In this document: piece after piece, positions 48,316 to 63,726 of the stretch
Numbering within the stretch: the stretch's first letter is position 1
Layout of the letters: each line of letters opens with the position of its first letter
The notes under the pieces: model-generated
Database searches by the model: none
Told to the model about the DNA's origin: nothing
The model's input: only the letters and a program-made list of their open reading frames with translations
Made by a program: the position numbers and the translations under genes
Virus record (IMG/VR): IMGVR_UViG_3300025150_000005
Direction: 5' to 3' (one strand)
DNA: 64,000 bases
Origin: an uncultured virus (IMG/VR IMGVR_UViG_3300025150_000005)
Taxonomy: Duplodnaviria > Heunggongvirae > Uroviricota > Caudoviricetes

Positions 48316-48501
48316 ATGCGTGCGCCCCCAAGGCTACCGCGCTTTTTCCCACTAGAAGTTCAGTCGTTTGCGAGGCGGGGCCGCGTTGCGTGGTCCGGTC
48401 GTGCCTTTGTACCGCGTCAGCGTAGACGCGTTCGGGCTGAGGCTTGGGCGCGTGTACGGTCGCACGGTGCGACCACATACCCGAGTTGATAGGAGTTCAA
48501 G

Positions 48502-48840
48502 ATGACGCGCGTGGAACTGGTGGAGCTGGCCTAGGTGATCGTGTTCGGTTGGGCCCCTGGGGCGCAGCGGGTGACGGTACAGCCGCTGCGCATGGAGAGC
48601 CACCACAAGGAGCCGATGTTCTACATCACCCTCAGCGACGACGGGGTTGAGGTGTAGAGCGCGGTCGTCGCGCAGGGTGCATGGTGGGCCGCACTGCAGG
48701 AGGCGCTGGGTGCCGCGGAGCGCGGAGCAGACCGCGACGCGACGCAGGATCGTCTCGATGAGGCGCGCGTGGAGGAAGCGCGCGCTGCAGCGCTGCAGGC
48801 GGAGGCTCTGCTGGAGATGTACGAGGCCGACCGCACCTGA
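48502..48840 (+). pseudogene. reading frame interrupted by two in-frame TAG codons
   Basis: ATG 48502 (AGGAG SD), TAG 48532, in-frame ATG 48616 (AAGGAG SD), TAG 48655, TGA ending 48840. Confidence 0.45.
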
Positions 48841-48939
48841 CAGCGTACCTCACGAGCACAGAACCACCGAGCCCTCCGCGGGGTTCGGTGGTTCGATGGT
48901 CGTACGGTGCGACTACATCTGACAGAGGAGGCACAGCGG

Positions 48940-49491
48940 ATGAACCCGACTGTGATCAAGACGATCGTCGCCGCGCAACAGCGCGGCGAGATCGCGTGCG
49001 TCATGGACGCGCGCGGGGACTTCAACCTCGACCACGCCCGCACTGCTGGTGTCGACATGTCTCGGCTGCTCTTCAGCCGGCCCGACCACGTCGAGCAGGC
49101 AAACGAGATCATCACGTCGCTGGTTCGCAGCGGCGCGATCGACATTATCGTCACCGACGGTTTCATTGTCGAGGACGATGTGACGCGGCGCACGGCTGCG
49201 TGCAACGGCACGCGGCTCCTCGGCCTGCCGCTCACGCGGCCGACCTTCAACCTGTACTCCCAGGCGCCCGGTCGCAACGCGGCGCTGTACGTGCTGGCAA
49301 AGAACGCCAGTGCGCACAACTGTGTCGAGTGGATCACGGCGCACGCCCGGTACGGCGAGGGCCTGCGGCTCTTCCGTGCCTTCCAGTGGTCACCGTCCGG
49401 CGAGCGGTTCGTGTGCGCCTGGATCGTCGAGGGTGGCGCGGGTCGCGTGACGACGTGGCTCGACGTGAGCATCCCGCGGGAGTTCGCGTGA
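48940..49491 (+). CDS. RecA-fragment fusion protein
   Basis: AAQQRGEIACVMDA...ARTAGVDMSRLLFSRPDHVEQANEIITSLVRSGAIDIIVTD matches the RecA core between the Walker motifs; no P-loop. Confidence 0.75.
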   Translation: MNPTVIKTIVAAQQRGEIACVMDARGDFNLDHARTAGVDMSRLLFSRPDHVEQANEIITSLVRSGAIDIIVTDGFIVEDDVTRRTAACNGTRLLGLPLTRPTFNLYSQAPGRNAALYVLAKNASAHNCVEWITAHARYGEGLRLFRAFQWSPSGERFVCAWIVEGGAGRVTTWLDVSIPREFA

Positions 49492-49712
49492 TGGCCGCCA
49501 GCATTGCGGAGATCGTGGCCTATCGCAGCCCAGTCGAGCACTGGCACGTTGCCCTGCGCGACCACCAGGGCCGCGCAAGTGCCATTCCCGGCCGCTTCGA
49601 CTCGGCTGAGGGCGCCTTCGTGGCGCGTGCCGCGGCACAGCAGAACGCCAACGCGCTGGGCCTGAAGCGGGCCTACTGCGTGGTGTCCTGCACTGGCACC
49701 CACACCCTGTGA
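49491..49712 (+). CDS. hypothetical protein
   Basis: TGATG coupling; stop codon supplied by the repeat. Confidence 0.55.
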   Translation: MAASIAEIVAYRSPVEHWHVALRDHQGRASAIPGRFDSAEGAFVARAAAQQNANALGLKRAYCVVSCTGTHTL

Positions 49713-49790
49713 GCACAGCAGGGCCGACGCGCGGAGCGTCGGCCCTGCGATGGTCGCATGGTGCGATCCAATGAGAGACAGCGGAGGCAG

Positions 49791-50147
49791 ATGAGGATGG
49801 TCCAGTACACCACCCCAGCCGTGGCGCGCGCGATCCGCGCGTACTTCGCGCGATTCAATGGTGATCCGGTGCTCGTGAATGCGATGATCGACGCGGGCCC
49901 GAAGGAGGTCACCGCCGGTGGGACGCTCTTCTTCCCTCTGCCGCAGGCGCTTCGGCGCCCGTTCTCCGACGCCGATCCGGCGACGGGGCTGGGCCCGTGC
50001 GCGTGCCGCTACTGCTCGCCGGTGGCGCACGTGTCGCAGCCCAACGGATGCTGGGATACATGCGCAGCGTCGTCGGATGGCGAGTCCGTCTGGCAGCCCC
50101 ACCACCCGGCCTTGAACGGGGCTCTCCCGAAGCGAGCGAAGGACTGA
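49791..50147 (+). CDS. hypothetical Cys-containing protein
   Basis: GGAGG SD just after the repeat; CACRYC. Confidence 0.6.
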   Translation: MRMVQYTTPAVARAIRAYFARFNGDPVLVNAMIDAGPKEVTAGGTLFFPLPQALRRPFSDADPATGLGPCACRYCSPVAHVSQPNGCWDTCAASSDGESVWQPHHPALNGALPKRAKD

Positions 50148-50241
50148 TCCCTACCCTGTGAGCACAGCAGGGCCGACGCTCCGCGTGTCGGCCCTGCGAT
50201 GGTCGCATGGTGCGGCTGATGGCAGACACGACGGAGGAAGC

Positions 50242-50778
50242 ATGAACGCGGCGACGAAGCCGGAGAAGACGCCCCTGGACATCATCACGGACCGCATGTA
50301 CAGCCACGTGCACGTGGCGCCCGAGCGTTGGCACGGGCGCCTGCACTTCAACGAGTGGGGCGCCTCGCGCCTCGTGGCCACCTACGGGTGGATCGCGGGC
50401 GTCGCGACGACGAACCCCGACTTCGCGGAGCGCCTCGCGGATGACCTGTTCGCACGCCTGGACTTCCTGGCCAACTACGCTGGGACGTGTGAGCGGGACG
50501 GCGTGACGTTGCCGCGTTGCCGCGTCGTCCTGGGCGACGACGGCACCCTCGGCGGGTTCACGGTGGCGTGGCACCGTCTCGTGGCTCCCGAGGAGGCGGT
50601 TGAGACGCGCGCTGACCTGACCGTCGAGCGCTGCGTGCACGACGGCGGGCACACCCGACTCGTGCAGGGGAAGTACAGGTTCTCGGTGAACGGCGCGATG
50701 CTCTACCGCGGCCCCGGTGCGGGGGAGACGTTCAGCGTCTCGACCTCGCGGGATTGTCTCTGGGACATCAACTCCTGA
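50242..50778 (+). CDS. hypothetical phage-type protein
   Basis: GGAGG SD after the repeat; C-terminal NGAMLYRGP...TFSVS...W.INS. Confidence 0.65.
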   Translation: MNAATKPEKTPLDIITDRMYSHVHVAPERWHGRLHFNEWGASRLVATYGWIAGVATTNPDFAERLADDLFARLDFLANYAGTCERDGVTLPRCRVVLGDDGTLGGFTVAWHRLVAPEEAVETRADLTVERCVHDGGHTRLVQGKYRFSVNGAMLYRGPGAGETFSVSTSRDCLWDINS

Positions 50779-50785
50779 GAAGCTC

Positions 50786-50867
50786 GGGGGCGTCCGCGCA
50801 GCAGCGCGGGCGCCCCTCAAGCTCCCCGAGTCGTCTACTCGGGGTGCTTGAGGGGCGGTGGTCGCCC
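50786..50867 (+). promoter_or_regulatory. double overlapping-hairpin element (variant 1)
   Basis: 13-bp stem overlapping a 20-bp stem, followed by GGTGGTCGC. Confidence 0.7.
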
Positions 50868-50893
50868 TGACACTCAACGGACAGGAGACAAGC

Positions 50894-52291
50894 ATGGCAT
50901 TGGTCAAGTCCGCGGGTATCCGCGGCATCGACCCGGTGCCCGTCGAGGTCACCGCGACGCTCCGTAAGGGGCTGCCGCGGTTCGACATCGTCGGGCTTCG
51001 GGGGGATCGGGCGGTCAGCGAGACGCGCGTGCGCGTCAAGTCGGCCCTGGAGGCTGCGGGCTGGTGGCCCAATGGCAACCTGCAGGTGCAGGTCGAACCA
51101 CAGTGTGACCCCGACCCGGCCTTCGACCTGCCGATCGCGCTGGCGGTCGCGCAGGCCGCGGGCTTCCTGCCCGACGACGGCGGCTTCGCCTTCGGTGAGC
51201 TGGCCCTCGACGGGCGGGTGCGCGGCGCTCGGGGCGCTATCGTGCGCGCCCAGGGTGTCGAGCAGTTCGAGGTCGTGCCCGACGTGGGCTACGTCTCCCA
51301 GGACAACGCGTTCGAGGTCGCGCGTGTGCGTAGTGGCGTCACGCTGCTGGACCATCTCGCAGAGGCGGCGCCGGCTGAGGTGCGGTGGCGTACCGAGCAC
51401 GTCCACTCCCGTACCCCCGCACCCCAGCTCGACCTCGGGGAGTGCAACCTCCTGCCCGAAACGCTCCGCGCATTGGAGGTTGCCCTGACCCTCCAGCGTC
51501 CCTTCCTGCTCGTTGGGCCGCCCGGCGCGGGGAAGACGATGATCGCGCGCCGCATCCCGGGTGTGCTTTGCTCGCTGAGCGAGGCCGAGGGCCGCGAGGT
51601 GCTCGCCATCGCCAGCGTGGCTGGGCTCTTGCTCTTGCGGGATGATGCTCCGATGGTCGCGGCGCGGCCCTTCCGAGCGCCGCACCACAGCTGCTCCGAG
51701 GTCGCGCTCGTGGGCGGTGGGCCGATGCGCCGCCCCGGTGAGCTGTCGCTGGCGCACCGCGGCGTTCTGTTCCTTGATGAGCTGCCGGAGTTCCGGCGGC
51801 TGAGCACCCAGGCGGTCGGGTCCGTTCTGGATCAGGGGGCGGTCACGCTGGGCTTCGGCATCGGGGAGACGGCGACTCTTCCGGCGGCTCCGGCGTTCGT
51901 GGTCGCCAGTACGAACCCGTGCCCGTGCGGCTACTACGGGCACTTCGCGCAGTGCTGCAAGTGTCACCCCACGGCGGTTCAGGCGTACACCGATCGGCTG
52001 CGCTGGGCAGCACGTGCCATCCACGCACGGATGGCCGTCCCGACCCCGACCCTCCGGGGACCGGGGGTCAACGAACGGCGGGCGTCGGTGTCGATGTCGA
52101 GCGAGGAGATGCGCGGGCGGGTTGCCCGTGCGCAGAACCTCCTCGACGATGTCGACGACGTTCGCGCGCCGGGACGGAGCGAGCTGACGCGACAGGTCGC
52201 GCGGTGCTGTGCAGCTGTCGACGGATCGCGGGAGGTGCAGGCGGAGCACTGGCGCGAGGCCGAGGGCTACACGGCGCTCCTGGTGGGGTGA
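50894..52291 (+). CDS. ComM/YifB-family Mg-chelatase-like AAA+ ATPase
   Basis: N-terminal GLPRFDIVGL...ETRVRVKSAL; GPPGAGKTM, RPFRAPHH, GELSLAHRGVLFLDELPEF, NPCPCG. Confidence 0.9.
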   Translation: MALVKSAGIRGIDPVPVEVTATLRKGLPRFDIVGLRGDRAVSETRVRVKSALEAAGWWPNGNLQVQVEPQCDPDPAFDLPIALAVAQAAGFLPDDGGFAFGELALDGRVRGARGAIVRAQGVEQFEVVPDVGYVSQDNAFEVARVRSGVTLLDHLAEAAPAEVRWRTEHVHSRTPAPQLDLGECNLLPETLRALEVALTLQRPFLLVGPPGAGKTMIARRIPGVLCSLSEAEGREVLAIASVAGLLLLRDDAPMVAARPFRAPHHSCSEVALVGGGPMRRPGELSLAHRGVLFLDELPEFRRLSTQAVGSVLDQGAVTLGFGIGETATLPAAPAFVVASTNPCPCGYYGHFAQCCKCHPTAVQAYTDRLRWAARAIHARMAVPTPTLRGPGVNERRASVSMSSEEMRGRVARAQNLLDDVDDVRAPGRSELTRQVARCCAAVDGSREVQAEHWREAEGYTALLVG

Positions 52292-52299
52292 GGTGCTGA

Positions 52300-52372
52300 G
52301 GAGCGGGGCGCGCGGGCGCCCCGCTCCCTAGAGCCTCCGAGGTGGACTCGGGGGTTCCAGGGAGCGATGGAG
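52300..52372 (+). promoter_or_regulatory. double overlapping-hairpin element (variant 2)
   Basis: 12-bp stem overlapping a 19-bp stem, followed by GATGG. Confidence 0.7.
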
Positions 52373-52400
52373 CTTCAACAGATTAGGGGAAATACGGAAC

Positions 52401-52652
52401 GTGGAATGCCATCAGTGCGGTGCGTGCTGCACGCACATTTCGATCTCGTCGGCTCTCCCGGGGCTGCCCAATGGCAAGCCCGCGGGGGTGAGGTGCCCAC
52501 ACCTCGACGCGCGGAACCTCTGTGGGCTCTTCGGGAAGCCTGAGAGGCCACGCGTCTGCTCGTCGTTCCAGGCGGATCGTGAGATCTGCGGGACGAACGG
52601 GGCTGAGGCGGTCGAGCTGATTCAGTTGTGGGAGCGCTTGACGGCGCCCTGA
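52401..52652 (+). CDS. YkgJ-family CxxCxxCC cysteine-cluster protein
   Basis: CHQCGACC..ISISS..PG.P.GKPAGVRC..L....C.LFG.PERP.VC. Confidence 0.85.
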   Translation: MECHQCGACCTHISISSALPGLPNGKPAGVRCPHLDARNLCGLFGKPERPRVCSSFQADREICGTNGAEAVELIQLWERLTAP

Positions 52653-52742
52653 TCGCAACCGCCTGAGCACAGGCGCGCCGACCCCGGTCGGCGCGCTGAT
52701 GGTCGTGCGGTACGACCTGACAGACACAAAGGAAGAACGCCA

Positions 52743-53372
52743 ATGGGTAGCAGCCTCATCACGCAACAGGCCGGCGCGCCGGCCGACTGGCAGACGCACG
52801 ACTACGAGCCCGAGATCGACGCCCTCACCCTTGAGGAATTCCGAGAGGCCCTCGACTACGGGATTCTGAACGAGGAGGCCCTGCGCGGCGAGATCGCGGA
52901 CGACAAGGACATCAACGATGCTGGTGACGTCTCCGAGGACGATCTGCTGGTCGTGCTGAAGGAGAAGGTGCGGCAGGCGCTGGCCTTCGTGCGGGAGCGC
53001 GCCGGCGGGCGCAGCCTCAATCAGTGGGTGCTCGCGGACGGTGGGGCCGGGTTGGAGACCGGGGGCGAGTCCTGGGGCGACGACCCGACCGAGGAGTACG
53101 GGCCGCTTCGGCTGTGTGTGGAAGTCGGGATCTTCGATTCGCTGCGGGCGGCGCGCGTCGTCCGGTGCTCGAAGGTGGCCGACGCGCTGATCGCAGAGGT
53201 CGGCAACAAGGATGTTGGCTACCTGCTCGACGACCGCGTGCATGACGCCAAGGGGAGCGAAGCGGCGGACATCAACAACGGCGGCGTCGCCGCCCAGATC
53301 AGATACCTCATGGACGAGTGCGGGATGAAGCCCGCCGAGATCCGTGAGGCACTCGCCGCCGACGACGACTGA
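52743..53372 (+). CDS. acidic hypothetical protein
   Basis: Fills the cassette exactly; AAGGA SD. Confidence 0.65.
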   Translation: MGSSLITQQAGAPADWQTHDYEPEIDALTLEEFREALDYGILNEEALRGEIADDKDINDAGDVSEDDLLVVLKEKVRQALAFVRERAGGRSLNQWVLADGGAGLETGGESWGDDPTEEYGPLRLCVEVGIFDSLRAARVVRCSKVADALIAEVGNKDVGYLLDDRVHDAKGSEAADINNGGVAAQIRYLMDECGMKPAEIREALAADDD

Positions 53373-53465
53373 TCGCAACCGCCTGAGCACAGAGCCCACG
53401 ACCCGCGTAGCGCGGTCGTGGGCTCGATGGTCGTGCGGTACGACCCAGTGATGACAGGAGTGTTA

Positions 53466-54032
53466 ATGACACGCCAAGAAGTCCACGAAGCGTTGCAGCG
53501 GCTGATCGAAGCCGCCAACGCTGCCGACGGGCCGGGGAGTGATCTCCCGCCCGAGTGGGCCGGGCAGAACCACCTGTACGGGGACGTCCAGGCGGCCCTG
53601 GAGCGAATCGCGCCGGGGGCCTGCGACGTCTGGTCGCGGGATGGGGAGTGGCCGAAGTGGGGTGAGTTCGTCCCGCCCCTCCGGGTGGAGGAGCATCCGG
53701 CGCTGGACGAGATTCGCCATCGCGCACGGGGCAACGCGTTCATCCTCGCGTTCCGGCTGGCCGAGCGGGCGTGGCCGAGTGTCACACTCGCCCTGGGTGT
53801 GCGATTCGGGCGTGACGCGCCCATCGCCACCTTCCTCGGGCGGATGCTGGGCAAAGGGGTCGGCCCGTGGTGGGTCGTGAGCACGCGCCCTGGCGGCGTC
53901 CCCAGCGATGAGGAACGCAGCGCGGCCATCCGGCTGCTCGAAGCGTCGGCGCTCGTTGGCGCCGGCGTCGAGCGTGTCGTGATCATGGGAAATGGGGGCA
54001 ACTACACCATCCTCCCCAGCACTACCGCGTGA
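53466..54032 (+). CDS. protein with a degenerate RadC/JAB-like C-terminus
   Basis: PGGVPSDEE..A.RLLEA..LVG...VVIMG...Y follows RadC spacing but lacks the His/Asp metal ligands. Confidence 0.5.
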   Translation: MTRQEVHEALQRLIEAANAADGPGSDLPPEWAGQNHLYGDVQAALERIAPGACDVWSRDGEWPKWGEFVPPLRVEEHPALDEIRHRARGNAFILAFRLAERAWPSVTLALGVRFGRDAPIATFLGRMLGKGVGPWWVVSTRPGGVPSDEERSAAIRLLEASALVGAGVERVVIMGNGGNYTILPSTTA

Positions 54033-54109
54033 GCGCAGAACGGCCGACGCCTCGTCAGCGTCGGCCGTTCGACGGTCGCACGGTGCGGCTAACGACGGAC
54101 AACGGAGGA

Positions 54110-55234
54110 ATGATGCGAAGCGAGTTCAAGGCTCTCCAGCGCGAGCTGAAGATGCGTGTCCTCGGGCGCGAGGACGAAGTGGAGGGGTTGCTCGTCGCGG
54201 CCCTCGCGGGCCAGCACCTGCTGTTGTTGGGTCCGCCCGGCACCGGCAAGAGCATGCTGGCCAACCTGTTCGCGCAGGCGGCCAACACGAAGCACTTCGG
54301 CCTGTTGCTGACGCAGTTCACCACCCCCGAGGAGGTGTTCGGGCCGGTCAAGTTGTCGGCTCTGAAGCAGGACCGCTACGAGCGCGTCCTGGACAACCAT
54401 CTTGCGAACGCAGAGTCCGCGTTCCTCGATGAGTGTTACAAGGCCAACTCCGCGATTCTCAATGCACTTCTGACTATTCTCAACGAACGCATCTTCGACA
54501 ACGGCGGGACGCGCGTCAAGTGCCCGCTGAAGTTCGTCGTCGGCGCGTCGAACGAGCTGCCCGAAGACAAGTCGCTCGGCGCCCTCGACGATCGCTTCGC
54601 CGTCCGCATGTGGATCGAGCCGCTGCAGAGCGACGACGACCGCGCGTGTATCCTGGGCGGACAGCTCAACCACGACCCCATGCCGACGCTGACGAACGGT
54701 GCGCTCGACGCGGCGCGCGCCGAGGTCCAGCGGGTCGACATCGCGCCCATCCTCCCGGAGGCCCTGGCGCTCATCCGAGAGATTCAGACCGACCTCTCGG
54801 TCTACGTCTCCGACCGCAAGCTGGCCCTGCTCGGCAGGCTCCTCCAGGCGGCCGCGTGGCTCGACGGTCGCACGACGGTCGGCAAGCAGCACCTCGCCAT
54901 CTTCCGCCACGCGCTCTGGTCGCACCCGGACCAGCGGGCTGCGGTCGCGAACAAGGTGCTCGCGGTCGCTGACCCCGAAGCTGCGGAAGCGGAGAAGATG
55001 CTCCGCACCATCGTGGGCGCGGCTCAGGCCGCCGACGCGACGCTCGGTCGGGCCGGGGCCAACCCGGCGAGCGCGGTGAACGAGCTGGCGGGGCTCAACC
55101 GGCAGACCCAGGAGGAGCTGCGCAAGCTGCGGGACCTCGCGCAGCGGTCGCCCTCGGCGGCGCGGACGCTGACGCGTGCAGAGGACGCCGCCAAGCGGGT
55201 GCACGCGGCGATCTCCCGCGCGGCGGGGATCTGA
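54110..55234 (+). CDS. MoxR/RavA-like AAA+ ATPase
   Basis: GPPGTGKS, FTTPEEVFGP, FLDECYKANSAILNALL, GASNELP, DRF, SDRK. Confidence 0.9.
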   Translation: MMRSEFKALQRELKMRVLGREDEVEGLLVAALAGQHLLLLGPPGTGKSMLANLFAQAANTKHFGLLLTQFTTPEEVFGPVKLSALKQDRYERVLDNHLANAESAFLDECYKANSAILNALLTILNERIFDNGGTRVKCPLKFVVGASNELPEDKSLGALDDRFAVRMWIEPLQSDDDRACILGGQLNHDPMPTLTNGALDAARAEVQRVDIAPILPEALALIREIQTDLSVYVSDRKLALLGRLLQAAAWLDGRTTVGKQHLAIFRHALWSHPDQRAAVANKVLAVADPEAAEAEKMLRTIVGAAQAADATLGRAGANPASAVNELAGLNRQTQEELRKLRDLAQRSPSAARTLTRAEDAAKRVHAAISRAAGI

Positions 55235-55735: not shown

Positions 55736-55848
55736 TCACGTACCGCTAATCACGTACCACCCGAGCGCAGGGCACAGGGGCGCGCAGCGCGTCCCTGTGC
55801 CTGACGGTCGCATGGTGCGGCTAACACGGACCAGAGGAGCCCCCACAA

Positions 55849-56778: not shown

Positions 56779-56883
56779 TTTCTACCCTGTGAGCACAGCG
56801 GGGCCGACGTCGCGAAGCGCGAAGCGTCGGCCCCGCGATGGTCGCATGGTGCGATCCGATGGGTGTGGTGGAGGCAGCGAGAC

Positions 56884-57453
56884 ATGGAAGAAGGTAGCTG
56901 GACCCCGTGGGGTCGGGCAGACAGTGTGAGGACCCTCGCGGAGGGGGTGTGGGCGGTGGGGACCCCGGGACACGGAGGGGTCAAGCTGGATCGGCGCCGC
57001 AACGCCGAGATCCCTGCGCCCATGCGCCGCAAGGGGGGCTGGTACGAGGAGGACTGCGAGGCGCACATCGTCTTCGTGTTCCTGCCGGTGGCGCGGGATG
57101 AGAGCCAACGCGAGGAGGCCCGGCGGGGCTGTCGCAACTACTTCCCGGATGAGTGGATGGCTGCGACGGGTGAGGTGCTGACGCCGGACCAGTCTCACGT
57201 CTTGGAGGAGCGCGCATTTCGAGTGAAGCACGCGGAGGACTACGTTTCGGTCGCCGCAGTCGGAAGCTGGCACGCGGCGGTCCCGGAGGGGATGGTGGGG
57301 TGCACCGCGGTCCCGGGGAAGATGTCGCACCTGGGATACGCGCGTGAGCACGCGCGGTGCTTCCTCGTGCCTGCTGACGAGTACAGTGGGCGTGGGCTCA
57401 AGTTCGTGATCGATCTCCAGCGACACCAGGAAGTGCCCGCGCGCACCTTCTGA
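56884..57453 (+). CDS. DUF7007-like mobile-element protein
   Basis: TPWG, V.TPGHGG, WYEEDCE, RNYFPD motifs. Confidence 0.7.
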   Translation: MEEGSWTPWGRADSVRTLAEGVWAVGTPGHGGVKLDRRRNAEIPAPMRRKGGWYEEDCEAHIVFVFLPVARDESQREEARRGCRNYFPDEWMAATGEVLTPDQSHVLEERAFRVKHAEDYVSVAAVGSWHAAVPEGMVGCTAVPGKMSHLGYAREHARCFLVPADEYSGRGLKFVIDLQRHQEVPARTF

Positions 57454-57544
57454 TCACGTACCACCCGAGCGCAGAGGGGGTGAGCCGTAGGGCTCGCCCC
57501 CTCGACGGTCGCATGGTGCGATCCGACGGATAGGAGACAGGACA

Positions 57545-58195
57545 GTGTACAACGCAACTTTCGTCCGACTCAAGGACCGGCTGGGGTGGACTGGGGACGA
57601 CGCACCCCTCCAACTGGCACTGACGCATCGGTCGCGCAGCGTCGACGCCAACAACGAGCGCCTGGAATTTCTAGGCGACTCCGTGCTGGACCTCGTCATC
57701 GGTGGGGCGCTGCTGATGCGGCACCCCACCCGTGATGAGGGCTGGCTTTCGCAGCGCCGGGCGCAGATCGTCTGCACCCCGGCCCTCGCGCGCCTCGCGC
57801 GAGACTGGCAGCTCGGGCACCTGTTGGAGATCGACAGCGGTGCCGAGCGCGATGGCGCCCGCGACAACGACCGAATCCTGGCGTCCACCGTCGAGGCGGT
57901 GATTGGGGCGTTCTACCAGCGCTTCGGCTTTGCTGAGACGGTAGGCGCGCTGTGTCGCGTGTTCGGCACGAATCTGAATGACGGGGGGGACATCGTGGTG
58001 GAGGAGAACCCCAAGACGGTCCTCCAGAACAGGCTCGCGCGTGCTGGGAGGGCGCCGCGGTATGTCGTGGGCGTCATCGACGGCGAGACGGTCGCCTACG
58101 TGTATATACAGGAGGCGCTGATCGGGCGTGGCGTGGGCCCGAATAAAAAGGCCGCTGAGCGGGCGGCCGCGGAGCACGCGCTTCGTTCCCTGTGA
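57545..58195 (+). CDS. rnc: ribonuclease III
   Basis: ALTHRS, NERLEFLGDSVL signature, VEAVIGA and C-terminal dsRBD (NPKTVLQ...G.G.NKKAAE.AAA). One acidic site reads ASTVE instead of ADxxE. Confidence 0.9.
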   Translation: MYNATFVRLKDRLGWTGDDAPLQLALTHRSRSVDANNERLEFLGDSVLDLVIGGALLMRHPTRDEGWLSQRRAQIVCTPALARLARDWQLGHLLEIDSGAERDGARDNDRILASTVEAVIGAFYQRFGFAETVGALCRVFGTNLNDGGDIVVEENPKTVLQNRLARAGRAPRYVVGVIDGETVAYVYIQEALIGRGVGPNKKAAERAAAEHALRSL

Positions 58196-58267
58196 GCACA
58201 GCAGGGCCGACGCTCCGCGCGTCGACCCTGCGATGGTTGCATGGCGCGGCAGAGAGAGGGAGAGACG

Positions 58268-58864
58268 ATGGACCGAGAGACGTTCAACCACTTCGTAGCA
58301 ATCCTGACCTTCCTGGAAACGGCGGGGATCCCGCACGCGGTCGGTGGGGCGGTCGCCATGGCCGCCTACGGATACAACCGCGCCACGTCGGACATCGACA
58401 TCTTCATCGACCCGAACCAGCTGGATCCGGTGCTCGGTGCGATGCGTGCGCTCGGGTACAATGTGCGTCTGGTGTTCGATGAGACGCACTACGAGGTGTC
58501 CAGTCCAGAGCTGGACCGTCGCCGTGGGGACCGTGAGGCGCATGCAGATCTGCTGTTCGCATCAGCGGATCCGGACTGGTCGGCGTTGATGGCCCCGGAT
58601 CTGGCGCGAATCTACGACCGTGAGATCAGTGTGTTCCCCGCAGTGTTGCTCGCAGCGGCCAAGTTCTACGCCGGGCGGGTGAAGGATGAGCTGGATCTCG
58701 TGGAGATGCTGAGCCGTGGCATCTACAACCCCGTCGAGGTCCAGGCGATGCTTCGTGCGATGCAGGATGAGGAGGCAGCGCTCGCATTCGAGGCGATGGT
58801 GGCGCGGTGGCGTGCACCGCGGCCCCGCCGGAACCGCCCCCCCAAAGGCACCCTGAGGCGCTAG
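58268..58864 (+). CDS. nucleotidyltransferase-fold protein
   Basis: GGAVA...RATSDIDIF; K....R.KD..D. Confidence 0.8.
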   Translation: MDRETFNHFVAILTFLETAGIPHAVGGAVAMAAYGYNRATSDIDIFIDPNQLDPVLGAMRALGYNVRLVFDETHYEVSSPELDRRRGDREAHADLLFASADPDWSALMAPDLARIYDREISVFPAVLLAAAKFYAGRVKDELDLVEMLSRGIYNPVEVQAMLRAMQDEEAALAFEAMVARWRAPRPRRNRPPKGTLRR

Positions 58865-58981
58865 TAAACCGACCTACGTTTGTAGTAGCGTACCACCCGA
58901 GCGCAGGGCACAGGGGCGCGCAGCGCGTCCCTGTGTCTGACGGTCGCATGGTGTGGCTAACAGAGCGGAAACGAGGTGCCA

Positions 58982-60289
58982 ATGGCACGCGAAGCCCAGG
59001 CCCCCGGTGCCTTCGATCTCACCCCGATTCAGGGGTGGTTCGTCGACCGGGCCGAACAGAACACCCCCCTCCTCCGCGCGGCCCGCGAGGGTCCGTGGGG
59101 GGAAGATGACCCGAGCTGGCGACAGTTCGGCCGTGAGCTGGCCGCGCGGCTCTACACGCGCGACAAGCTCGCGCCCCTCGACAACCCTGACCCCCGCCTG
59201 GGCGCACTTCACGCCCAGCTTTCCGAGCTGAGTGAGTGGCAGGCGCTGCAAGGTGCCCTGCAGCAGCGCGATGACCCGACCGAGGTCGGGAACGCAGCGG
59301 CGGACCTGCTGAAGGGCATCACTGCCCTGGCCGAGCAGGACAACCTGCGCCGCGTCAACCTCAGTGGATTCGAGGGCGAGCGCATCGGTGCCGCGATGGT
59401 CGATGCGTGCCGGAATGCTGCGCAGCGCTCCCTCGACGAAGGCGAGCGCATGGCGGGGATGGGCTGGGGCAACGACGCCACGCAGCCGGGCCGCAACGCG
59501 GACCAGCGCCGCGCGCTGCTCAAGCGCATGGACCGGAGCCCGCGACTGAAGGCGATCCTCGCCCTGGCGGGGCGCATGCGCTTCGCGGCCCGCGCTGCGG
59601 CGTCCAGGCGCGTCCAGTCGGGCGTCGGGATGACCTTTGGCATTGAGCAGGGGGCCGACGTCTCGCGGCTCCTGCCCATCGAACAGGGCTACCTGACGTC
59701 GGACGATCCCGACCTGGAGATCCTGGGCCTTGCGCATCTCGCGCAGCGCCAAGCGCTCCAGTATCGCATGGTGGTGCGGCCCCCGGTGCAGGGCGGGCCG
59801 ATCGTCGTGCTGCTCGACGTCTCGGGTTCGATGCAGGGCGAGTCAGAGGTTTGGGCGAAGGCGGTCTTCATCGGACTGTTGGAGCTGGCGCAGGAGAAGA
59901 AGCGCCCCGTGCACCTCGTCGCGTTCAACGGCGGCGTCGTAGGCCAGTGGCGCTTCGCACCCGGGGAGCGTGACTTCGACAAGCTCATCGACACGATGGG
60001 CGTGGCCTGCAAGGGCGGTACGAACTTCCACGAGCCGATGGCGCGCGGGATCAAGTGCATCGAAGGCGAGCAGACGATGCGTGACGCGGACGTGGTGATG
60101 ATCACGGACGGGGCCGCAGATGTCAATGGCATCGTCGAGATGCTCGACGGGTGCTCGGTTGGGGTGCGGTGCTTCGGCATCGTGATCGGCGCGAGCACGG
60201 AACGGCTCGACGTCTTCTGCTCGAAGACGTGGGGCCTGGAGGATCTGACGGTGGAGGCGGCGAGCAGGTTGTTCGACGCGGTCGTGTAG
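58982..60289 (+). CDS. VWA-domain protein (ViaA/CoxE-like partner of the MoxR ATPase)
   Basis: MIDAS DVSGSM, GGTNF, ITDG; RLLP.E. Confidence 0.9.
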   Translation: MAREAQAPGAFDLTPIQGWFVDRAEQNTPLLRAAREGPWGEDDPSWRQFGRELAARLYTRDKLAPLDNPDPRLGALHAQLSELSEWQALQGALQQRDDPTEVGNAAADLLKGITALAEQDNLRRVNLSGFEGERIGAAMVDACRNAAQRSLDEGERMAGMGWGNDATQPGRNADQRRALLKRMDRSPRLKAILALAGRMRFAARAAASRRVQSGVGMTFGIEQGADVSRLLPIEQGYLTSDDPDLEILGLAHLAQRQALQYRMVVRPPVQGGPIVVLLDVSGSMQGESEVWAKAVFIGLLELAQEKKRPVHLVAFNGGVVGQWRFAPGERDFDKLIDTMGVACKGGTNFHEPMARGIKCIEGEQTMRDADVVMITDGAADVNGIVEMLDGCSVGVRCFGIVIGASTERLDVFCSKTWGLEDLTVEAASRLFDAVV

Positions 60290-60367
60290 CCACAGGGGAG
60301 GGGGGCGCCTACGGCGGCCCCCTCCCTGATGGCTGCATGGTGCGGCCTACCAGCACGGAGATTTGAG

Positions 60368-60787
60368 ATGGAACACGGTTTCAAGAAGGCCCTGCGGGAC
60401 GCGTTGGGGGCGCAGCGGCTCGTAGAGGCTCATGATGCTCTTCTGAGCCACATCGACTCTTTCGAGCCTGTCTGTCCGGCCCTCCCCTACCTCTACGTGG
60501 CGATCGCGCGGGGCACCATCATCGATCTGGACGTGACGGGCGTGGACAGCGACGAGGCCCAGCTCGTGGCGCTGCTGCGGAGCTGCTATCCAGACGCCGA
60601 CCACTGGATCTGGGAGCACGTCCGCGTGGAAGCGGGTGTGGAGGGGTGCGTGGCGACTGCACCCGATGTCTGCATCGAGTGCGGGCGTGCGGACCTGACG
60701 GTGATGTGTGTCTCCGTAGACGGGGACGATGGCCGCCGTGCGTGGGTGTGCGACGACTGTGGCCACGCGCACCTGATCAACGACTGA
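60368..60787 (+). CDS. hypothetical Zn-ribbon protein
   Basis: CIEC...CDDC; GGAG SD. Confidence 0.6.
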   Translation: MEHGFKKALRDALGAQRLVEAHDALLSHIDSFEPVCPALPYLYVAIARGTIIDLDVTGVDSDEAQLVALLRSCYPDADHWIWEHVRVEAGVEGCVATAPDVCIECGRADLTVMCVSVDGDDGRRAWVCDDCGHAHLIND

Positions 60788-60879
60788 TCACGTACCACCC
60801 GAGCGCAGGACACAGGGGCGCGCAGCGCGTCCCTGTGTCTGACGGTCGGGTGGTGCAGCTGACGACGGAGGAGTTGAGG

Positions 60880-61335
60880 ATGGCATCGCCCAAGGAGTTT
60901 GCCGCGACGTTGCGCGTCGTGCGCGAGATCACAGACATGGAGCGGCGCGACGACACGGGGTCTGGGGTGTACACCCAGCTCCTTCAGCAGCTGCGCGGGG
61001 ACCTGCTCGTCCACGGTGCAGGGTACAAGCTCCCCCGTGGCGGACACGCGTCGACCTTTGGAGACGCGCTCGTGGCGTGGCAGGCGGAGGCCCGCAAGAT
61101 CGATGTGGACGACCCCGACGTCTGGTGGCGTCGAGTCCACAAGGCGCAGGCCCTCGACGAGCGCATCGCGCGGGGTGACGCTGCGACCCCGGACTTCGAC
61201 GCCGCCGTCGAGTCGCTCGCCAGTGACATTCGGACCGAGACGGGGCTCTACGCGCTGCCCGACGAGAACCTCACCGCGGACCGCGAACGCGCTCTGCAGC
61301 AGTGGCGGTACTACTCGCGCACGCCTCGCGACTGA
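60880..61335 (+). CDS. hypothetical protein
   Basis: GGAGG SD; fills the cassette. Confidence 0.6.
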   Translation: MASPKEFAATLRVVREITDMERRDDTGSGVYTQLLQQLRGDLLVHGAGYKLPRGGHASTFGDALVAWQAEARKIDVDDPDVWWRRVHKAQALDERIARGDAATPDFDAAVESLASDIRTETGLYALPDENLTADRERALQQWRYYSRTPRD

Positions 61336-61424
61336 GCAGCCACAGGGGGTGGGGACGCGTGCGGCGCGCGCCCCCACCCCTGATGGTCGCACGGTGCGGC
61401 TGGAACGGATCAAGGAGGCGACGC

Positions 61425-61796
61425 ATGAATGCGTGCAAGGTGCAGTGGATCGGGGTGGACGGCAGCCCCTGTGAGGCGTGGGTGGCCAAGCCCCGCAGTG
61501 AGGCCGGCTTCGTGTTGCCCATGATGGGCGCCTACCCGACCTACAAGGCCGCGATGCACGCGGCGTGGCAGGTCGAGGAGGGACACACTCCCGAGATCAA
61601 GGTGTTCGATCAGGACACCATCTTCGAGTGGGAGGGCACCTTCATGGAGTTCGCGCTCGCCAACGCGAGCACGCCTGACGTCGTCGAGCGGGTGCGTCGC
61701 GCCCAGCTGGGGTCGGTCGAGGTGTTCGGGGGCGGTGGAGCGAGCGTCTGCAAGGTGCTCAAGCTCGGTGGTCCCGTGCCGGGCGGTGCATCGTGA
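61425..61796 (+). CDS. hypothetical protein
   Basis: AAGGAGG SD. Confidence 0.6.
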   Translation: MNACKVQWIGVDGSPCEAWVAKPRSEAGFVLPMMGAYPTYKAAMHAAWQVEEGHTPEIKVFDQDTIFEWEGTFMEFALANASTPDVVERVRRAQLGSVEVFGGGGASVCKVLKLGGPVPGGAS

Positions 61797-62077
61797 GTGA
61801 CAAGGCGCTCTTCCCGCTGGGCCAGACCGTGATGACGGCTGGCTTCGAGGATCTGTTCGGTGAGTATGCACGAGAGGTCGCGACGATCGCGCTGACACGG
61901 CACGTCCACGGTGATTGGGGCGACCTCGACAACCACGACCGCGCGGTCAACGCACGGGCGCTCCGGGATGGCGGACGCCTGATGAGCGTCTACAAGTTCG
62001 ACGACGGCCTCACGCACTGGGTGATCACGGAGGCGGATCGATCCGTGACGACGGTGCTGCTACCGCATGACTACTGA
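61793..62077 (+). CDS. conserved plasmid/phage small protein
   Basis: F.LG..V.T.G...RH..GDWGDL...D...N..AL..G.RL.S.Y...WVITEADRSVTTVLLP.DY, a pattern I recognise from mobile elements. Confidence 0.8.
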   Translation: MSDKALFPLGQTVMTAGFEDLFGEYAREVATIALTRHVHGDWGDLDNHDRAVNARALRDGGRLMSVYKFDDGLTHWVITEADRSVTTVLLPHDY

Positions 62078-62174
62078 ACCCCGTGAGCACAAGGGAGGGG
62101 TGCGCCCTGCGCGCACCCCTCCCTGATGGTCACGTGGTGTGACCGATCGACCTTCACAGAAGGAAGGCTTCACG

Positions 62175-62552
62175 ATGATGCAGATGAATCGAATCGAGCG
62201 GGCCGTGCGAGAGCACGTCCAGGGGGGCTGGGACGATCGGGCGAAAGCCCTGATTCGTCGGGCAACTCACGACCTCTACGCCGGGCCATCGGTCTTGGGC
62301 TCCGAGGGCGGGGAGGGGATCGAGTGGCCTGGCTTCGCCGAGGCCATGGTCGAGCTTGGCGCCCTTGACCTTCCGGGGACGCTCTGGTGGGACACCACCG
62401 CAGAGATGCTCCTGGAGTGTGGGCCTCAGGGCTACACCGACGAGGATACGGGCGAGTACGTGGAGCCGTTCTACGAGGATTACGTGGAGCTGGATCTCCG
62501 CGAGATCCGTCGCATGGTCTTCGGGCGCGAACTCGCGCCCTACGTGCGCTGA
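62175..62552 (+). CDS. hypothetical protein
   Basis: AAGGA SD after the repeat. Confidence 0.6.
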   Translation: MMQMNRIERAVREHVQGGWDDRAKALIRRATHDLYAGPSVLGSEGGEGIEWPGFAEAMVELGALDLPGTLWWDTTAEMLLECGPQGYTDEDTGEYVEPFYEDYVELDLREIRRMVFGRELAPYVR

Positions 62553-62977
62553 TGGACACGCAGACGGACACCCCGCGCGAGGTCCCGAGCTACCCCGGCC
62601 TCCCCGTCGTCAAGGCCCTGGTGAAGAAGATGGGGCGGCTCCGATTGCGCGACGCTGTCGCCCGTGTCTGCGTGTCGGACTTCGGGATCGTGCGCTGTGA
62701 CAACAAGCCGCAACTGACCCTGAGCTTCGTCAACTCGCGCGGTAAGCGTGTGGACTGGTCCGTGAGCCTGGACCGGACGCCTGCGACGGAGGTCTACGAC
62801 CAGCTGCGTCAACTGGAGGGTCAGCTGATCTTCCTGCTCGCGAGTGGGCGGCTGTACACCGTGCTGACCTACAGCGCGATGAACCGCGGTGAGTCCGTGC
62901 GGCGTCGTGTCACGGGGACATCGCGGACGCGGTTCCGGGGGCAGTTCGTGATCGACGTCGAAGCCTTCCCCGAGTAG
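62552..62977 (+). CDS. hypothetical protein
   Basis: TGATG coupling; stop codon supplied by the repeat. Confidence 0.55.
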   Translation: MDTQTDTPREVPSYPGLPVVKALVKKMGRLRLRDAVARVCVSDFGIVRCDNKPQLTLSFVNSRGKRVDWSVSLDRTPATEVYDQLRQLEGQLIFLLASGRLYTVLTYSAMNRGESVRRRVTGTSRTRFRGQFVIDVEAFPE

Positions 62978-63056
62978 CCACAGGGGAGGGGGTCGCCTTC
63001 GGCGACCCCCTCCCTGATGGTCACGCGGTGTGATCAACAGGGACCTGGAGGAAGCG

Positions 63057-63257
63057 ATGTCCGAACGGACGCATACGTGCGTGGACGGCAAGCAGTCTGT
63101 CGCCCCGACCTACTGGCTCTACGACGGGCGAGGCATCCCGCCCTGTCGGGCGTGCCCGCAGTGTGAGGCCGAGAAGTACGGGCGCTATCGCCCCGACATT
63201 GTCGAGCGGGCCTACAGCGCGGCGGATGTCGACGAACCGATCGAGGAGGACGAGTGA
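63057..63257 (+). CDS. small hypothetical protein
   Basis: GGAGG SD; YDGRGIP.C..C..C...YRPD. Confidence 0.6.
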   Translation: MSERTHTCVDGKQSVAPTYWLYDGRGIPPCRACPQCEAEKYGRYRPDIVERAYSAADVDEPIEEDE

Positions 63258-63641
63258 TGGCGATCAAGCGTGGGTTACGGCCCCCGGCCATGTACGCCGT
63301 CGTCGCGACAACACTGCGGGGAGTCAGGGCAGCTGATCCCGAGACTGCTGAAGACGAGGCTGTGCGGTATCACGTCAAGCCGGGCGCATCACGTCAAGCC
63401 GGGCGCGCGTGCCATCATCGCGAAGTGTGTCGACCGCGCCGAGGCTGATCGGTGGCTCGCCGAGTTCAAGGCGGAGATTGAGGCCGACATCGCTGACGCT
63501 GAAGTTGATATGGCCAGCAAGGGTGCCCGGTTCGACTGGGACCGGGGCGGGATCGACATGGGCGATGGCGTTTTCATCCCGACGCTCCGCGTGGCGATCG
63601 TGCCCATCACGGATCTCGAAGACGACGCTGATCCCGAGTAG
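63257..63641 (+). pseudogene. gene frameshifted by a 19-bp tandem duplication
   Basis: ATCACGTCAAGCCGGGCGC x2 at 63369-63406; removing one copy joins ORF 63254.. to ORF ..63641. Confidence 0.75.
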
Positions 63642-63726
63642 CCACAGCGACAGGGGTGCGCATCGCGCCCCTGTCGTGATGGTCACGCGGTGTGACCGGA
63701 TCGACAACCCCGGACGGGAGAACGCA

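What the first reader, a model, noticed from the sequence alone, without database searches (positions are those of the whole stretch)
48426..63697. Compensatory and G-U substitutions show selection on + strand single-stranded structure
Seen in hairpin 1: GCAGGGCC/GGCCCTGC (49718) becomes GCGGGGCC/GGCCCCGC (about 56798). One pair is G-C at 55749, G-U at 58889 and A-U at 60785. The 48426-48453 stem has 12 pairs including 4 G-U. Hairpin 2 variants GGTCGCA/TGCGACC, GGTCGTG/TACGACC, GGTCACG/TGTGACC and GGCTGCA/TGCGGCC all keep pairing (58188 and 60785 are degenerate). Most imperfections are G-T on +, which would be C-A on -. Inference: the functional form is the transcript or the + DNA strand, so a structured RNA motif or ssDNA signal rather than a dsDNA protein site.
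Basis: seen in the sequence. Interest (0 to 1): 0.85.

Follow-up and report, generated by a model that had tools for sequence, protein, structure and literature searches.

The report
Repeated intergenic RNA hairpin modules
Nineteen copies of one ~75-base folded signal sit between the genes of a 15-kb gene array in a large uncultured groundwater mobile element, and their base changes show selection for a fold of the coding-sense strand, most likely marking where a long message is cut and capped: a familiar phage-type device in an uncatalogued form.

Summary
Nineteen copies of one element lie at 48408-63699, all on the + strand, each between a stop codon and the next ribosome-binding site. Hairpin 1 keeps pairing while its sequence changes freely: 13 of 13 pairs change on both sides and 97.6% of cells pair. 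Non-Watson-Crick positions in hairpins 1 and 2 are G-T on + in 50 cells and A-C in 4. The + strand folds more stably than the - strand in 19 of 19 copies.

A conserved box upstream of hairpin 1 pairs with the 5' arm of hairpin 2. This extends hairpin 1 into a 23-29-position irregular long stem with an almost invariant CA/GA internal loop. Long stem and hairpin 2 exclude each other, and both show compensatory changes. Hairpin 2's covariation alone is weak.

Best reading (confidence 0.4): an intercistronic RNA module. The long stem is cut RNase III-style in the internal loop. Hairpin 1 then caps the upstream message and hairpin 2 refolds as a 5' cap. The array encodes a divergent RNase III.

No Rfam match, no relatives elsewhere, no RNA data. 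Rivals are a terminator-promoter cassette and an ssDNA signal. New variant of a known kind.

The parts
48408..48476 (+). Element copy 1, a variant at the head of the array. It has non-coding DNA upstream, a G.G mismatch instead of the CA/GA loop, a hairpin 1 with 4 G-T, and a hairpin 2 with 7 WC pairs.
   Evidence: 54.5 bits
48843..48916 (+). Element copy 2
   Evidence: 71.6 bits
49700..49770 (+). Element copy 3. The upstream stop TGA at 49710 lies inside the box.
50149..50219 (+). Element copy 4
52654..52719 (+). Element copy 5 (hairpin 2 variant GGTCGTG/TACGACC)
53374..53447 (+). Element copy 6
54020..54092 (+). Element copy 7
   Evidence: 83.4 bits
55236..55306 (+). Element copy 8
55752..55824 (+). 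Element copy 9 (box type ACCACCCGAGCGCA; lower stem extends to 7 further pairs)
56780..56858 (+). Element copy 10 (longest hairpin 1, 39 nt)
57456..57525 (+). Element copy 11, directly upstream of the RNase III gene
58183..58253 (+). Element copy 12 (degenerate: C.A mismatch in hairpin 1, hairpin 2 weakened)
58888..58960 (+). Element copy 13
60277..60349 (+). Element copy 14 (GGCTGCA/TGCGGCC; lower long stem 12 of 12 canonical)
60790..60862 (+). Element copy 15 (hairpin 2 degenerate but lower long stem 11 of 12 canonical; long stem favoured by 21.8 kcal/mol)
61327..61403 (+). Element copy 16
62074..62146 (+). Element copy 17 (GGTCACG/TGTGACC)
62965..63037 (+). Element copy 18
63629..63699 (+). 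Element copy 19. The array may go on beyond the window end.
   Evidence: a run's contig continues past 64000
57545..58195 (+). Divergent RNase III gene inside the array, with nuclease domain plus dsRBD. Ser replaces the conserved Asp at E. coli position 114.
50770..50865 (+). Gap without the element, before the ComM-like gene. It holds a different module of three hairpins, including a 19-pair stem (z -6.4).
52285..52405 (+). Gap without the element, after the ComM-like gene. It holds a different module with an 18-pair stem followed by GATGG (z -4.2).

Best explanation
The element is an intercistronic RNA module of a long + strand transcript that runs through a same-strand gene array.

Anatomy, 5' to 3':
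- The stop codon of the upstream gene.
- A conserved box (ACC-N3-YGA-GC-R-CA).
- Hairpin 1: 11-17 G+C-rich pairs of free sequence.
- GAYGG-TCRYR-YGG-YRYGR-YC (hairpin 2).
- 16-35 nt.
- A Shine-Dalgarno site and the start codon.

Proposed mechanism:
1. In the uncut RNA, the box pairs with GAYGGTCRYRYGGT. This extends hairpin 1 into an irregular helix of 23-29 positions, about two turns or more. The helix is interrupted by an almost invariant 2x2 internal loop (5'-CA/5'-GA).
2. I infer that this long stem is a substrate for an RNase III-type enzyme, either the host's or the divergent one encoded in the array. The enzyme nicks the 3' side at the internal loop, as at the phage T7 early sites.
3. 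The upstream message then ends in hairpin 1, a barrier to 3' exonucleases.
4. The freed 5' arm refolds with its downstream partner into hairpin 2. That hairpin sits 2-3 nt from the new 5' end and protects the downstream message.
5. A ribosome ending translation at the stop codon, which lies 5-20 nt before hairpin 1 in most copies, would also open the lower stem.

Shown: the copies, their strand bias, and the pairing and covariation of three helices. Inferred: transcription through the element, the cut, the refolding and the stabilising effect.
For: Placement and copy number:
- 19 copies, all on +, all between a stop codon and an RBS.

Hairpin 1:
- 13 of 13 pairs change on both sides and 97.6% of cells pair. 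0 of 500 tool shuffles and 0 of 20000 of my shuffles reach this.

Strand bias:
- G-T:A-C is 50:4 cells and 23:4 events in hairpins 1 and 2, p 3.3e-4.
- The + strand folds at a mean of -46.4 kcal/mol against -40.2 for the - strand, and + is lower in 19 of 19 copies.

Long stem:
- It is the minimum-energy fold in 19 of 19 copies. It is favoured over hairpin 1 plus hairpin 2 by 4.5-21.8 kcal/mol, mean 9.5.
- The pair next to the internal loop is A-U in 13 copies and G-C in 6, never broken. This pair also fits the two-hairpin fold.
- The 10 pairs specific to the long stem are 77.4% paired, against 27-51% in slid registers. 5 of them change on both sides. 0 of 500 shuffles reach the observed pairing or covariation score.
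- After collapsing to 12 distinct types, 75 of 20000 shuffles reach the observed canonical count and 5 of 20000 the observed WC count.
- Copy 60841 loses hairpin 2 pairing but gains two long-stem pairs.

Hairpin 2:
- 97.0% of cells pair. 3 pairs change on both sides, and all 7 pairs show a G-U variant.

Internal loop:
- The CA/GA loop is present in 18 of 19 copies.

RNase III link:
- The array encodes an RNase III with an intact NERLEFLGD motif and a dsRBD.
- For RNase III substrates, about two helical turns, and internal loops that limit the cut to one strand and leave a protective 3' hairpin, are stated in the Introduction passages I read of PMC1540722.

Supporting context:
- The two gaps without the element hold other 18-19-pair stems.
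- There is no T-run after the stems and no sigma-70-like promoter on + in 45-64 kb.
Against: - No RNA data exist for this DNA, so transcription through the element, ends and cuts are all unobserved.
- RNAalifold on the same alignment does not choose the lower long stem. It predicts hairpin 1, the two pairs next to the loop, and a 6-pair hairpin 2.
- The lower stem has 43 non-canonical cells of 228, 9 of them A-C. Its strand bias is small: 81.1% canonical on + against 77.2% on -.
- All copies are paralogues in one genome. Shuffle tests are therefore inflated by relatedness, and the tool itself warns of this.
- The array's RNase III has Ser where 7 of 7 aligned homologues and E. coli have the metal-binding Asp114. 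It may be weak or non-catalytic.
- The predicted accessibility of the translation start region does not change on the hypothetical cut: 0.50 vs 0.51, p 0.93.
- G-T pairs are also tolerated in DNA hairpins, and + is favoured with DNA parameters too.
Confidence: 0.4

Rival explanations
1. Terminator-promoter cassette, like the PeSL elements of T4-type phages. Hairpin 1 or the long stem ends or insulates the upstream transcript. The conserved GAYGGTCRYRYGGTRYGR block is a promoter for an element-specific RNA polymerase or sigma factor. One possibility is a hairpin-form promoter like the early promoters of phage N4, which have a 5-7-pair stem and a 3-nt loop (recalled, not read here).
For: - The layout stem-loop, conserved block, SD, ATG before nearly every small gene matches the PeSL layout described in PMC4122927 (passages read).
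- The conserved block lies at a short, variable distance of 16-35 nt from the start codon, as a promoter-plus-leader would.
- The block is far more conserved in sequence than hairpin 1.
- Hairpin 2 is a 7-pair stem with a 3-nt loop.
Against: - There is no sigma-70-like promoter on + anywhere in 45-64 kb. All 3 promoter-like hits are on -.
- By my reading of the sequence, GG and GC in the block are 9 nt apart, not the 10 of sigma-54 promoters (consensus recalled).
- The wobble bias means the template (-) strand hairpin carries A-C mismatches, with only 76.7% canonical pairing. N4-type promoters use the template-strand hairpin (recalled).
- Covariation between the box and the 5' arm across hairpin 1 has no role in a promoter.
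- No polymerase gene was recognised among the 73 ORFs scanned against Pfam, though large unknown proteins remain.
Confidence: 0.2
2. RNA hairpins that act without a specific cut. They would be passive barriers to exonucleases and insulators between cistrons, as in selective processing and stabilisation. The lower stem and hairpin 2 would form a switch set by the terminating ribosome. The conserved blocks would also serve as homology for shuffling gene cassettes.
For: - The same structural evidence applies as for the best explanation.
- The stop codon starts 5 nt before hairpin 1 in 6 copies and 19-20 nt before it in 7 copies. A terminating ribosome would therefore cover the box.
- The 3' tails of hairpin 2 (GATC, GGCT, GACC, GACT, GGCC) are combined with different box types. 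That fits either recombination or repeated wobble-neutral change.
Against: - It does not explain the near-invariant CA/GA internal loop.
- It does not explain why a helix of two turns is kept.
- It does not explain the RNase III gene in the array.
- No joints at the elements were seen in the contigs of four runs, though those runs show a single strain without variants.
Confidence: 0.17
3. A signal on + strand single-stranded DNA. It could be an attC-like recombination site of a cassette array. It could also be a priming or second-strand site used when the element enters a cell or replicates as ssDNA.
For: - The + strand is also favoured with DNA parameters in 18 of 19 copies.
- The shape is a stem, an internal loop and a variable terminal stem, with one element per gene and the stop codon often inside the element. 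This recalls attC sites.
- The DUF7007 gene of the array has relatives on 408 plasmid records, 261 of them typed conjugative. In pOC167 it lies among ParB- and ArdC-like genes.
- In pLS20 the transferred strand is the non-template strand and carries repeated inverted-repeat regions before establishment genes (PMC8708921, sections 3.3 and 4.1 read).
Against: - 0 of 19 elements carry the attC core boxes RYYYAAC or GTTRRRY.
- No integrase, relaxase or transposase family was found among the 73 ORFs scanned.
- An ssDNA promoter of the F/ColIb type must form on the template strand, which here is the - strand, the one with A-C mismatches.
- No cassette-sized joints were seen in four runs.
- The fixed place between stop codon and RBS fits an mRNA role more simply.
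Confidence: 0.12
4. A double-stranded DNA site for a dimeric regulator (operator) repeated before each gene.
For: Hairpin 2 is a near-palindrome of conserved sequence repeated 19 times.
Against: - A dsDNA site gives no reason for G-T over A-C (50:4 cells).
- It gives no reason for compensatory changes inside one site.
- It gives no reason for hairpin 1 to keep pairing while changing all 13 pairs.
- It gives no reason for all copies to share one orientation.
Confidence: 0.04

Closest known systems
RNase III processing signals of the phage T7 early polycistronic mRNA (R0.3, R0.5, R1, R1.1, R1.3), and the similar conserved early-RNA sites of Bacillus phage SP82 (SP82 recalled, not read)
   Same: Both are irregular hairpins of about two helical turns between cistrons of one same-strand transcript. 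An internal loop can limit the cut to one strand and leave a protective 3' hairpin (principle read in PMC1540722). Here the upper stem-loop is 26-39 nt, against a 28-nt upper stem-loop product of the minimal R1.1 substrate.
   Different: - 19 copies of one sequence family, not a handful of unrelated hairpins.
- G+C-rich.
- The 3' strand of the lower stem is also the 5' arm of a second conserved hairpin, so two folds compete.
- The element carries its own divergent RNase III gene.
- Cleavage is untested.
PeSL (promoter-early stem-loop) cassettes of T4-type phages (PMC4122927, passages read; PMC2839356, listing only)
   Same: Both are composite conserved motifs (stem-loop, conserved block, SD, ATG) in the gaps between small variable genes. 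Both are possible substrates for modular shuffling.
   Different: PeSLs carry a recognisable sigma-70-like -35/-10, and none is found here. PeSL stems are short, whereas here there is a 23-29-position helix with strand-specific wobble.
Repeated regulatory regions before establishment genes of conjugative plasmids: EGeRS1 of pLS20 (PMC8708921), the >400-bp repeats of pKM101, and the ssDNA promoters of F/ColIb-P9 (both as mentioned in PMC6294495, passages read)
   Same: Both are G+C-rich, inverted-repeat-rich sequences repeated before same-strand accessory genes of a mobile element. The DUF7007 gene links this array to plasmid regions of that kind.
   Different: Those regions are 300-600 nt with 3-7 copies, each heading an operon. 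Here there are 19 copies of ~75 nt between single genes, and the structure is favoured on the coding-sense strand.
Integron attC sites
   Same: Both have one structured site per gene, conserved in shape and variable in the terminal stem. Both have internal unpaired bases, and the stop codon often lies inside the site.
   Different: There are no R''/R' core boxes (0 of 19) and no integrase in the window. The favoured strand is the sense strand.
REP/BIME extragenic palindromes
   Same: Both are repeated intergenic imperfect palindromes after stop codons that can stabilise upstream mRNA.
   Different: Here the copies are confined to one 15-kb array within the 64-kb window, all in one orientation, and in fixed register with the next RBS. 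No RAYT-like transposase was seen.
Processing-triggered refolding of hok-type mRNAs (recalled)
   Same: Both rest on the idea that an RNA holds two exclusive folds and that trimming shifts it from one to the other.
   Different: The sequence, context and purpose are unrelated. Here the switch is only predicted.

Membership tests
RNase III processing site (T7 early type) | Double helix of about two turns (20 bp or more), possibly by coaxial stacking | tested here: met
   Predicted only. The first 13 hairpin 1 columns give 12-13 canonical pairs. The lower stem gives 9-12 of 12 canonical positions in every copy. The long stem is the MFE fold in 19 of 19 copies.
RNase III processing site (T7 early type) | Internal loop or bulge at the target site that limits cleavage to one strand | tested here: met
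   A 2x2 loop, 5'-CA/5'-GA, lies between the upper and lower stem in 18 of 19 copies. Its role is inferred.
RNase III processing site (T7 early type) | Actual cleavage by RNase III | not testable with these tools
RNase III processing site (T7 early type) | Lies inside a polycistronic transcript between cistrons | tested here: inconclusive
   All genes and elements are on +. No sigma-70-like promoter or T-run terminator lies at the elements. The transcript itself is unobserved.
Intrinsic (rho-independent) terminator | G+C-rich hairpin followed by a U-run | tested here: not met
   The hairpin is present, but the tail is GAYGG in 18 of 19 copies. None of the 7 terminator-like sites of the scan is an element.
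PeSL cassette | Stem-loop directly upstream of a sigma-70-like early promoter, then SD and start | tested here: not met
   The stem-loop, SD and start are present. There is no -35/-10 match on + in 45000-64000.
Integron attC | R'' RYYYAAC and R' GTTRRRY core sites | tested here: not met
   0 of 19 elements hold either motif.
Integron attC | Adjacent integron integrase | tested here: not met
   No integrase family was found among the 73 ORFs of the window scanned against Pfam. DNA beyond the window was not seen.
N4-type hairpin promoter | 5-7-pair stem with 3-nt loop formed on the template strand (feature recalled) | tested here: inconclusive
   Hairpin 2 has 7 pairs and a 3-nt loop on +. Read on the template (-) strand only 76.7% of cells are canonical, leaving 4-6 contiguous pairs.
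N4-type hairpin promoter | Giant virion RNA polymerase gene in the genome | not testable with these tools
   None was recognised in the window. The rest of the element is not held.
Any Rfam family (riboswitch, ribozyme, leader) | Match at or above the gathering score | tested here: not met
   There are 0 matches at gathering over the whole window. Only 7 weak, unrelated matches at E up to 5 occur in 48300-64000.
REP/BIME | Dispersed through the genome in both orientations, with a RAYT transposase | tested here: inconclusive
   Within 64 kb the copies are confined to 48.4-63.7 kb and to one orientation. No whole genome is held.

The most novel reading that the evidence does not exclude
The element is a two-state intercistronic RNA switch of a new family. 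Each nucleotide of one strand is kept complementary to two partners, an upstream box and a downstream arm. The module therefore reads whether the upstream gene is being translated and whether the helix has been cut. A divergent RNase III-like protein encoded in the array, with Ser at the Asp114 metal site, is its dedicated reader. That protein would bind or nick only this helix. This would give a giant mobile element gene-by-gene control of message life in a single long transcript.
Probability: 0.12. Interest if true: 0.7.

Novelty: new variant of a known kind. Interest (0 to 1): 0.45.

Why it matters
Large uncultured phages and plasmids carry long arrays of small accessory genes, and how those arrays are expressed is unknown. 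This array offers a clean natural test set. It holds nineteen paralogous copies of one structured signal, with three helices whose pairing can be read from the sequence, and a nuclease gene that could act on them.

If the processing-and-refolding model holds, one compact module would insulate, cut and cap both neighbouring messages. That would be useful for understanding how expression levels are set gene by gene within operons. It could also serve as a part for synthetic operons in high-G+C hosts.

If the model fails, the element is still a well-supported new RNA or ssDNA motif that is absent from Rfam.

Tried and rejected
Searches for homologues:
- Genome contigs with the hairpin 2 core. None of the 135 loci held after searches has the box or an adjacent hairpin, so these are chance hits.
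- Viral contigs with the core, and with CACAG-gap-core. Chance hits only.
- Metagenome contigs with GAGCRCAG-gap-core. Of 12 loci, only L167 is real. It is a 3835-nt contig that shares four copies with identical model scores.
- Megablast of the array against plasmids and phages. No match.
- Protein-based loci: DUF7007 gave 15 viral loci at 33-45% identity. They have no core motif, no comparable repeat in the 3 loci checked, and no model hit. Five of their whole records were also searched. The RNase III and an 889-aa protein gave no viral relatives.

RNA evidence:
- No RNA holder is listed for this DNA.
- Contigs of four DNA runs show no variant or joint at the elements.

Function tests and annotation:
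- Translation start accessibility before and after the hypothetical cut shows no difference.
- Sigma-70 promoters and T-run terminators are absent at the elements.
- A sigma-54 promoter was rejected on GG-N9-GC spacing, from my reading of the sequence against the recalled consensus.
- A conserved upstream mini-ORF starting at the ATG of GATGG was rejected, because 6 copies have ACG there.
- PHROGs on 58 ORFs gave no structural phage protein. Phage versus megaplasmid stays open.
- No whole genome is held.
- Earlier-findings look-ups by place and by sequence returned nothing.
- No supplementary files of any paper were consulted.

Full report
**What is there**

The window is about 67% G+C. From 48.4 kb to its right end it carries an array of roughly 26 + strand genes. 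Most are small and without family matches. Recognisable ones include:
- a RecA-like fragment;
- a ComM/Mg-chelatase-like ATPase;
- a MoxR ATPase and a vWA protein;
- DUF6744 and DUF7007 proteins;
- a nucleotidyltransferase;
- an RNase III.

A fuzzy search, a degenerate pattern (16 hits, all on +, 0.5 expected) and a covariance model all agree on 19 copies of one element. All copies are on + and all lie between 48408 and 63699. None lies in the other 48 kb.

Each copy sits between the stop codon of one gene and the Shine-Dalgarno site of the next. The conserved 3' block ends 16-35 nt before the start codon. The upstream stop begins 5 nt before hairpin 1 in 6 copies and 19-20 nt before it in 7 copies.

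**Check of the observation**

On an alignment of the 19 copies (A1):
- Hairpin 1 is 97.6% paired, and 13 of 13 pairs change on both sides. No shuffle reaches this, in 500 tool shuffles or 20000 of mine on 18 distinct types.
- Hairpin 2 is 97.0% paired. Only 3 of 7 pairs change on both sides, and the other 4 vary only through G-U.
- After collapsing to 11 distinct types, 1528 of 20000 shuffles reach hairpin 2's pairing. Hairpin 2's covariation alone is therefore weak.

**Strand**

| Helix | WC | G-T | A-C | Other | Canonical on + | Canonical on - |
|---|---|---|---|---|---|---|
| Hairpin 1 | 220 | 21 | 2 | 4 | 97.6% | 89.9% |
| Hairpin 2 | 100 | 29 | 2 | 2 | 97.0% | 76.7% |

(All figures.)

- Counting each wobble once per stem family or column gives 16:2 and 7:2, together 23:4. 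The binomial p is 3.3e-4 against the 0.52 expected from base composition.
- All 7 hairpin 2 pairs show a G-U variant in some copy. A-C occurs only in the two degenerate copies.
- The + strand folds better than the - strand in 19 of 19 copies with RNA parameters, mean -46.4 vs -40.2 kcal/mol. With DNA parameters it does so in 18 of 19.
- This supports a single-stranded + strand fold and argues against a duplex protein site. It does not separate RNA from + strand ssDNA.

I anchored the copies on hairpin 1. The 14 nt upstream (a box, ACC-N3-YGA-GC-R-CA) then pair without gaps with the 14 nt downstream (GAYGGTCRYRYGGT).

- Hairpin 1 becomes the upper part of a long irregular stem.
- A 2x2 internal loop, 5'-CA/5'-GA, separates the two parts in 18 of 19 copies.
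- This long stem is the minimum-energy fold of every copy.
- It beats hairpin 1 plus hairpin 2 by 4.5-21.8 kcal/mol, mean 9.5.
- It uses the 5' arm of hairpin 2, so the two folds exclude each other.
- The pair next to the loop is A-U in 13 copies and G-C in 6, never broken. This pair is also compatible with hairpin 2.

The 10 pairs specific to the long stem behave as follows:
- They are 77.4% paired, against 27-51% in slid registers.
- 5 of them change on both sides.
- 0 of 500 shuffles reach the observed pairing or covariation score.
- On 12 distinct types, 75 of 20000 shuffles reach the canonical count and 5 of 20000 reach the WC count.

Changes in the shared arm are compensated sometimes in the box, sometimes in the 3' arm, sometimes in both:
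- 48895 compensates T9' with A in the box.
- 52698 compensates T9' with A in the 3' arm and G10' with C in the box.
- 60328 compensates in both.
- 60841 gives up hairpin 2 and gains two long-stem pairs.

Results against the long stem:
- RNAalifold on the same alignment predicts hairpin 1, the two loop-adjacent pairs and a 6-pair hairpin 2, not the lower stem.
- The lower stem holds 43 non-canonical cells of 228.
- All copies are paralogues of one genome, which inflates shuffle tests.

**Context**

- No whole genome is held.
- The DNA occurs in groundwater and aquifer metagenome runs. These are DNA only, and they show no variants or joints at the elements.
- The RNase III protein is recorded on a 130,784-nt contig, so the element is large.
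- The left part of the window has an endolysin-like amidase, sugar-modifying enzymes, Dam, an exonuclease, a ParB-like protein and several 880-1225-aa proteins without matches.
- No capsid, terminase, conjugation or integrase family was found among the ORFs scanned.
- DUF7007 relatives lie on 408 plasmid records, 261 of them typed conjugative. They also lie on large IMG/VR contigs.
- Phage or megaplasmid stays open.

**Relatives**

None was found. DNA pattern scans of the genome, viral and metagenome collections gave chance hits, plus one short contig sharing four element copies with identical model scores. The covariance model found nothing in 16 related loci or in 5 whole related viral records. 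Rfam has no match.

**Mechanism**

I commit, at 0.4, to an RNA processing and stabilisation module.

1. The long stem has the architecture stated for RNase III substrates: about two helical turns, with an internal loop that can restrict the cut to one strand and leave a protective 3' hairpin (PMC1540722, Introduction passages).
2. A nick on the GA side would leave hairpin 1 at the 3' end of the upstream message.
3. The nick would also free GGTCRYR to fold with its 3' partner into hairpin 2, 2-3 nt from the new 5' end.

The double duty of that arm also explains why the block is so conserved in sequence while hairpin 1 drifts freely.

The array's own RNase III keeps the NERLEFLGD motif and a dsRBD. 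It has Ser where E. coli and 7 of 7 aligned homologues have Asp114, and it is at most 45% identical to anything in the protein collection. It may be weak, or a binder only. The host enzyme could do the cutting.

The two array gaps that lack the element hold other stems of 18-19 pairs. This fits a general need for long helices between these genes.

The cut, the refolding and any effect on stability are inferred. Predicted start-site accessibility does not change on the cut.

**Rivals**

- A PeSL-like terminator-promoter cassette (0.2). It fits the layout (PMC4122927). It lacks any recognisable promoter and does not explain the box-arm covariation or the sense-strand wobble.
- Passive hairpins, or a ribosome-set switch without a cut (0.17).
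- A + strand ssDNA signal (0.12). It is not excluded by the energy tests. It lacks attC boxes (0 of 19), lacks an integrase, and is on the wrong strand for an ssDNA promoter.
- A duplex operator (0.04).

**Comparison and novelty**

The kind is known: repeated structured signals between early or accessory genes of phages and plasmids. Examples are the T7 RNase III sites, PeSLs, and EGeRS1 of pLS20.

Earlier notes of this scan describe similar lineage-specific hairpin arrays in other large phages. Those are unchecked AI notes, used only as context.

What differs here is the copy number, the competing helices with three-way compensation, and the nuclease gene in the array. I rate it a new variant of a known kind, interest 0.45.

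Noticed in passing
window 47950-48340: A non-coding stretch just upstream of the first element is packed with about a dozen GGATCC/GGGATCC (GATC-containing) repeats. The window also encodes a Dam-type methyltransferase (84-941). It could be the control region or promoter of the array, or an origin.
   Followed up: no
window 47693-47794: Five to six 18-bp tandem repeats lie inside an ORF (46883-47887). They encode a PVRTGV-type peptide repeat before a C-terminal hydrophobic segment.
   Followed up: no
window 57545-58195: The RNase III homologue has Ser at the position of the metal-binding Asp114 of E. coli RNase III, while 7 of 7 aligned homologues keep Asp. It is at most 45% identical to any of 5.8 billion proteins.
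   Followed up: partly
window 50770-50865 and 52285-52405: The two gaps around the ComM-like gene lack the 19-copy element. They hold another, mutually similar module: a short G+C hairpin plus an 18-19-pair stem with CCCCGAG/CUCGGGG-like arms.
   Followed up: partly
window 48940-49491: A 183-aa protein matches only positions 70-138 of the RecA family profile. It is a RecA-like fragment or a diverged small protein.
   Followed up: no
window 48502-48922: Gene calls after the first element are unclear. The ATG behind a good RBS opens a frame that stops after 10 codons at a TAG, and the frame stays open beyond it. The best high-GC3 frame (48647-48922) reads through element copy 2.
   Followed up: no
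window 54110-55234 and 58976-60289: The MoxR-type ATPase and a vWA protein, usually neighbours, are separated here by six other genes and their elements.
   Followed up: no
window 1-34000 versus 34000-64000: Gene orientation and GC skew switch around 34-40 kb, near a ParB-like gene (34572-35816) and a weak Lar-like match (33747-34136).
   Followed up: no
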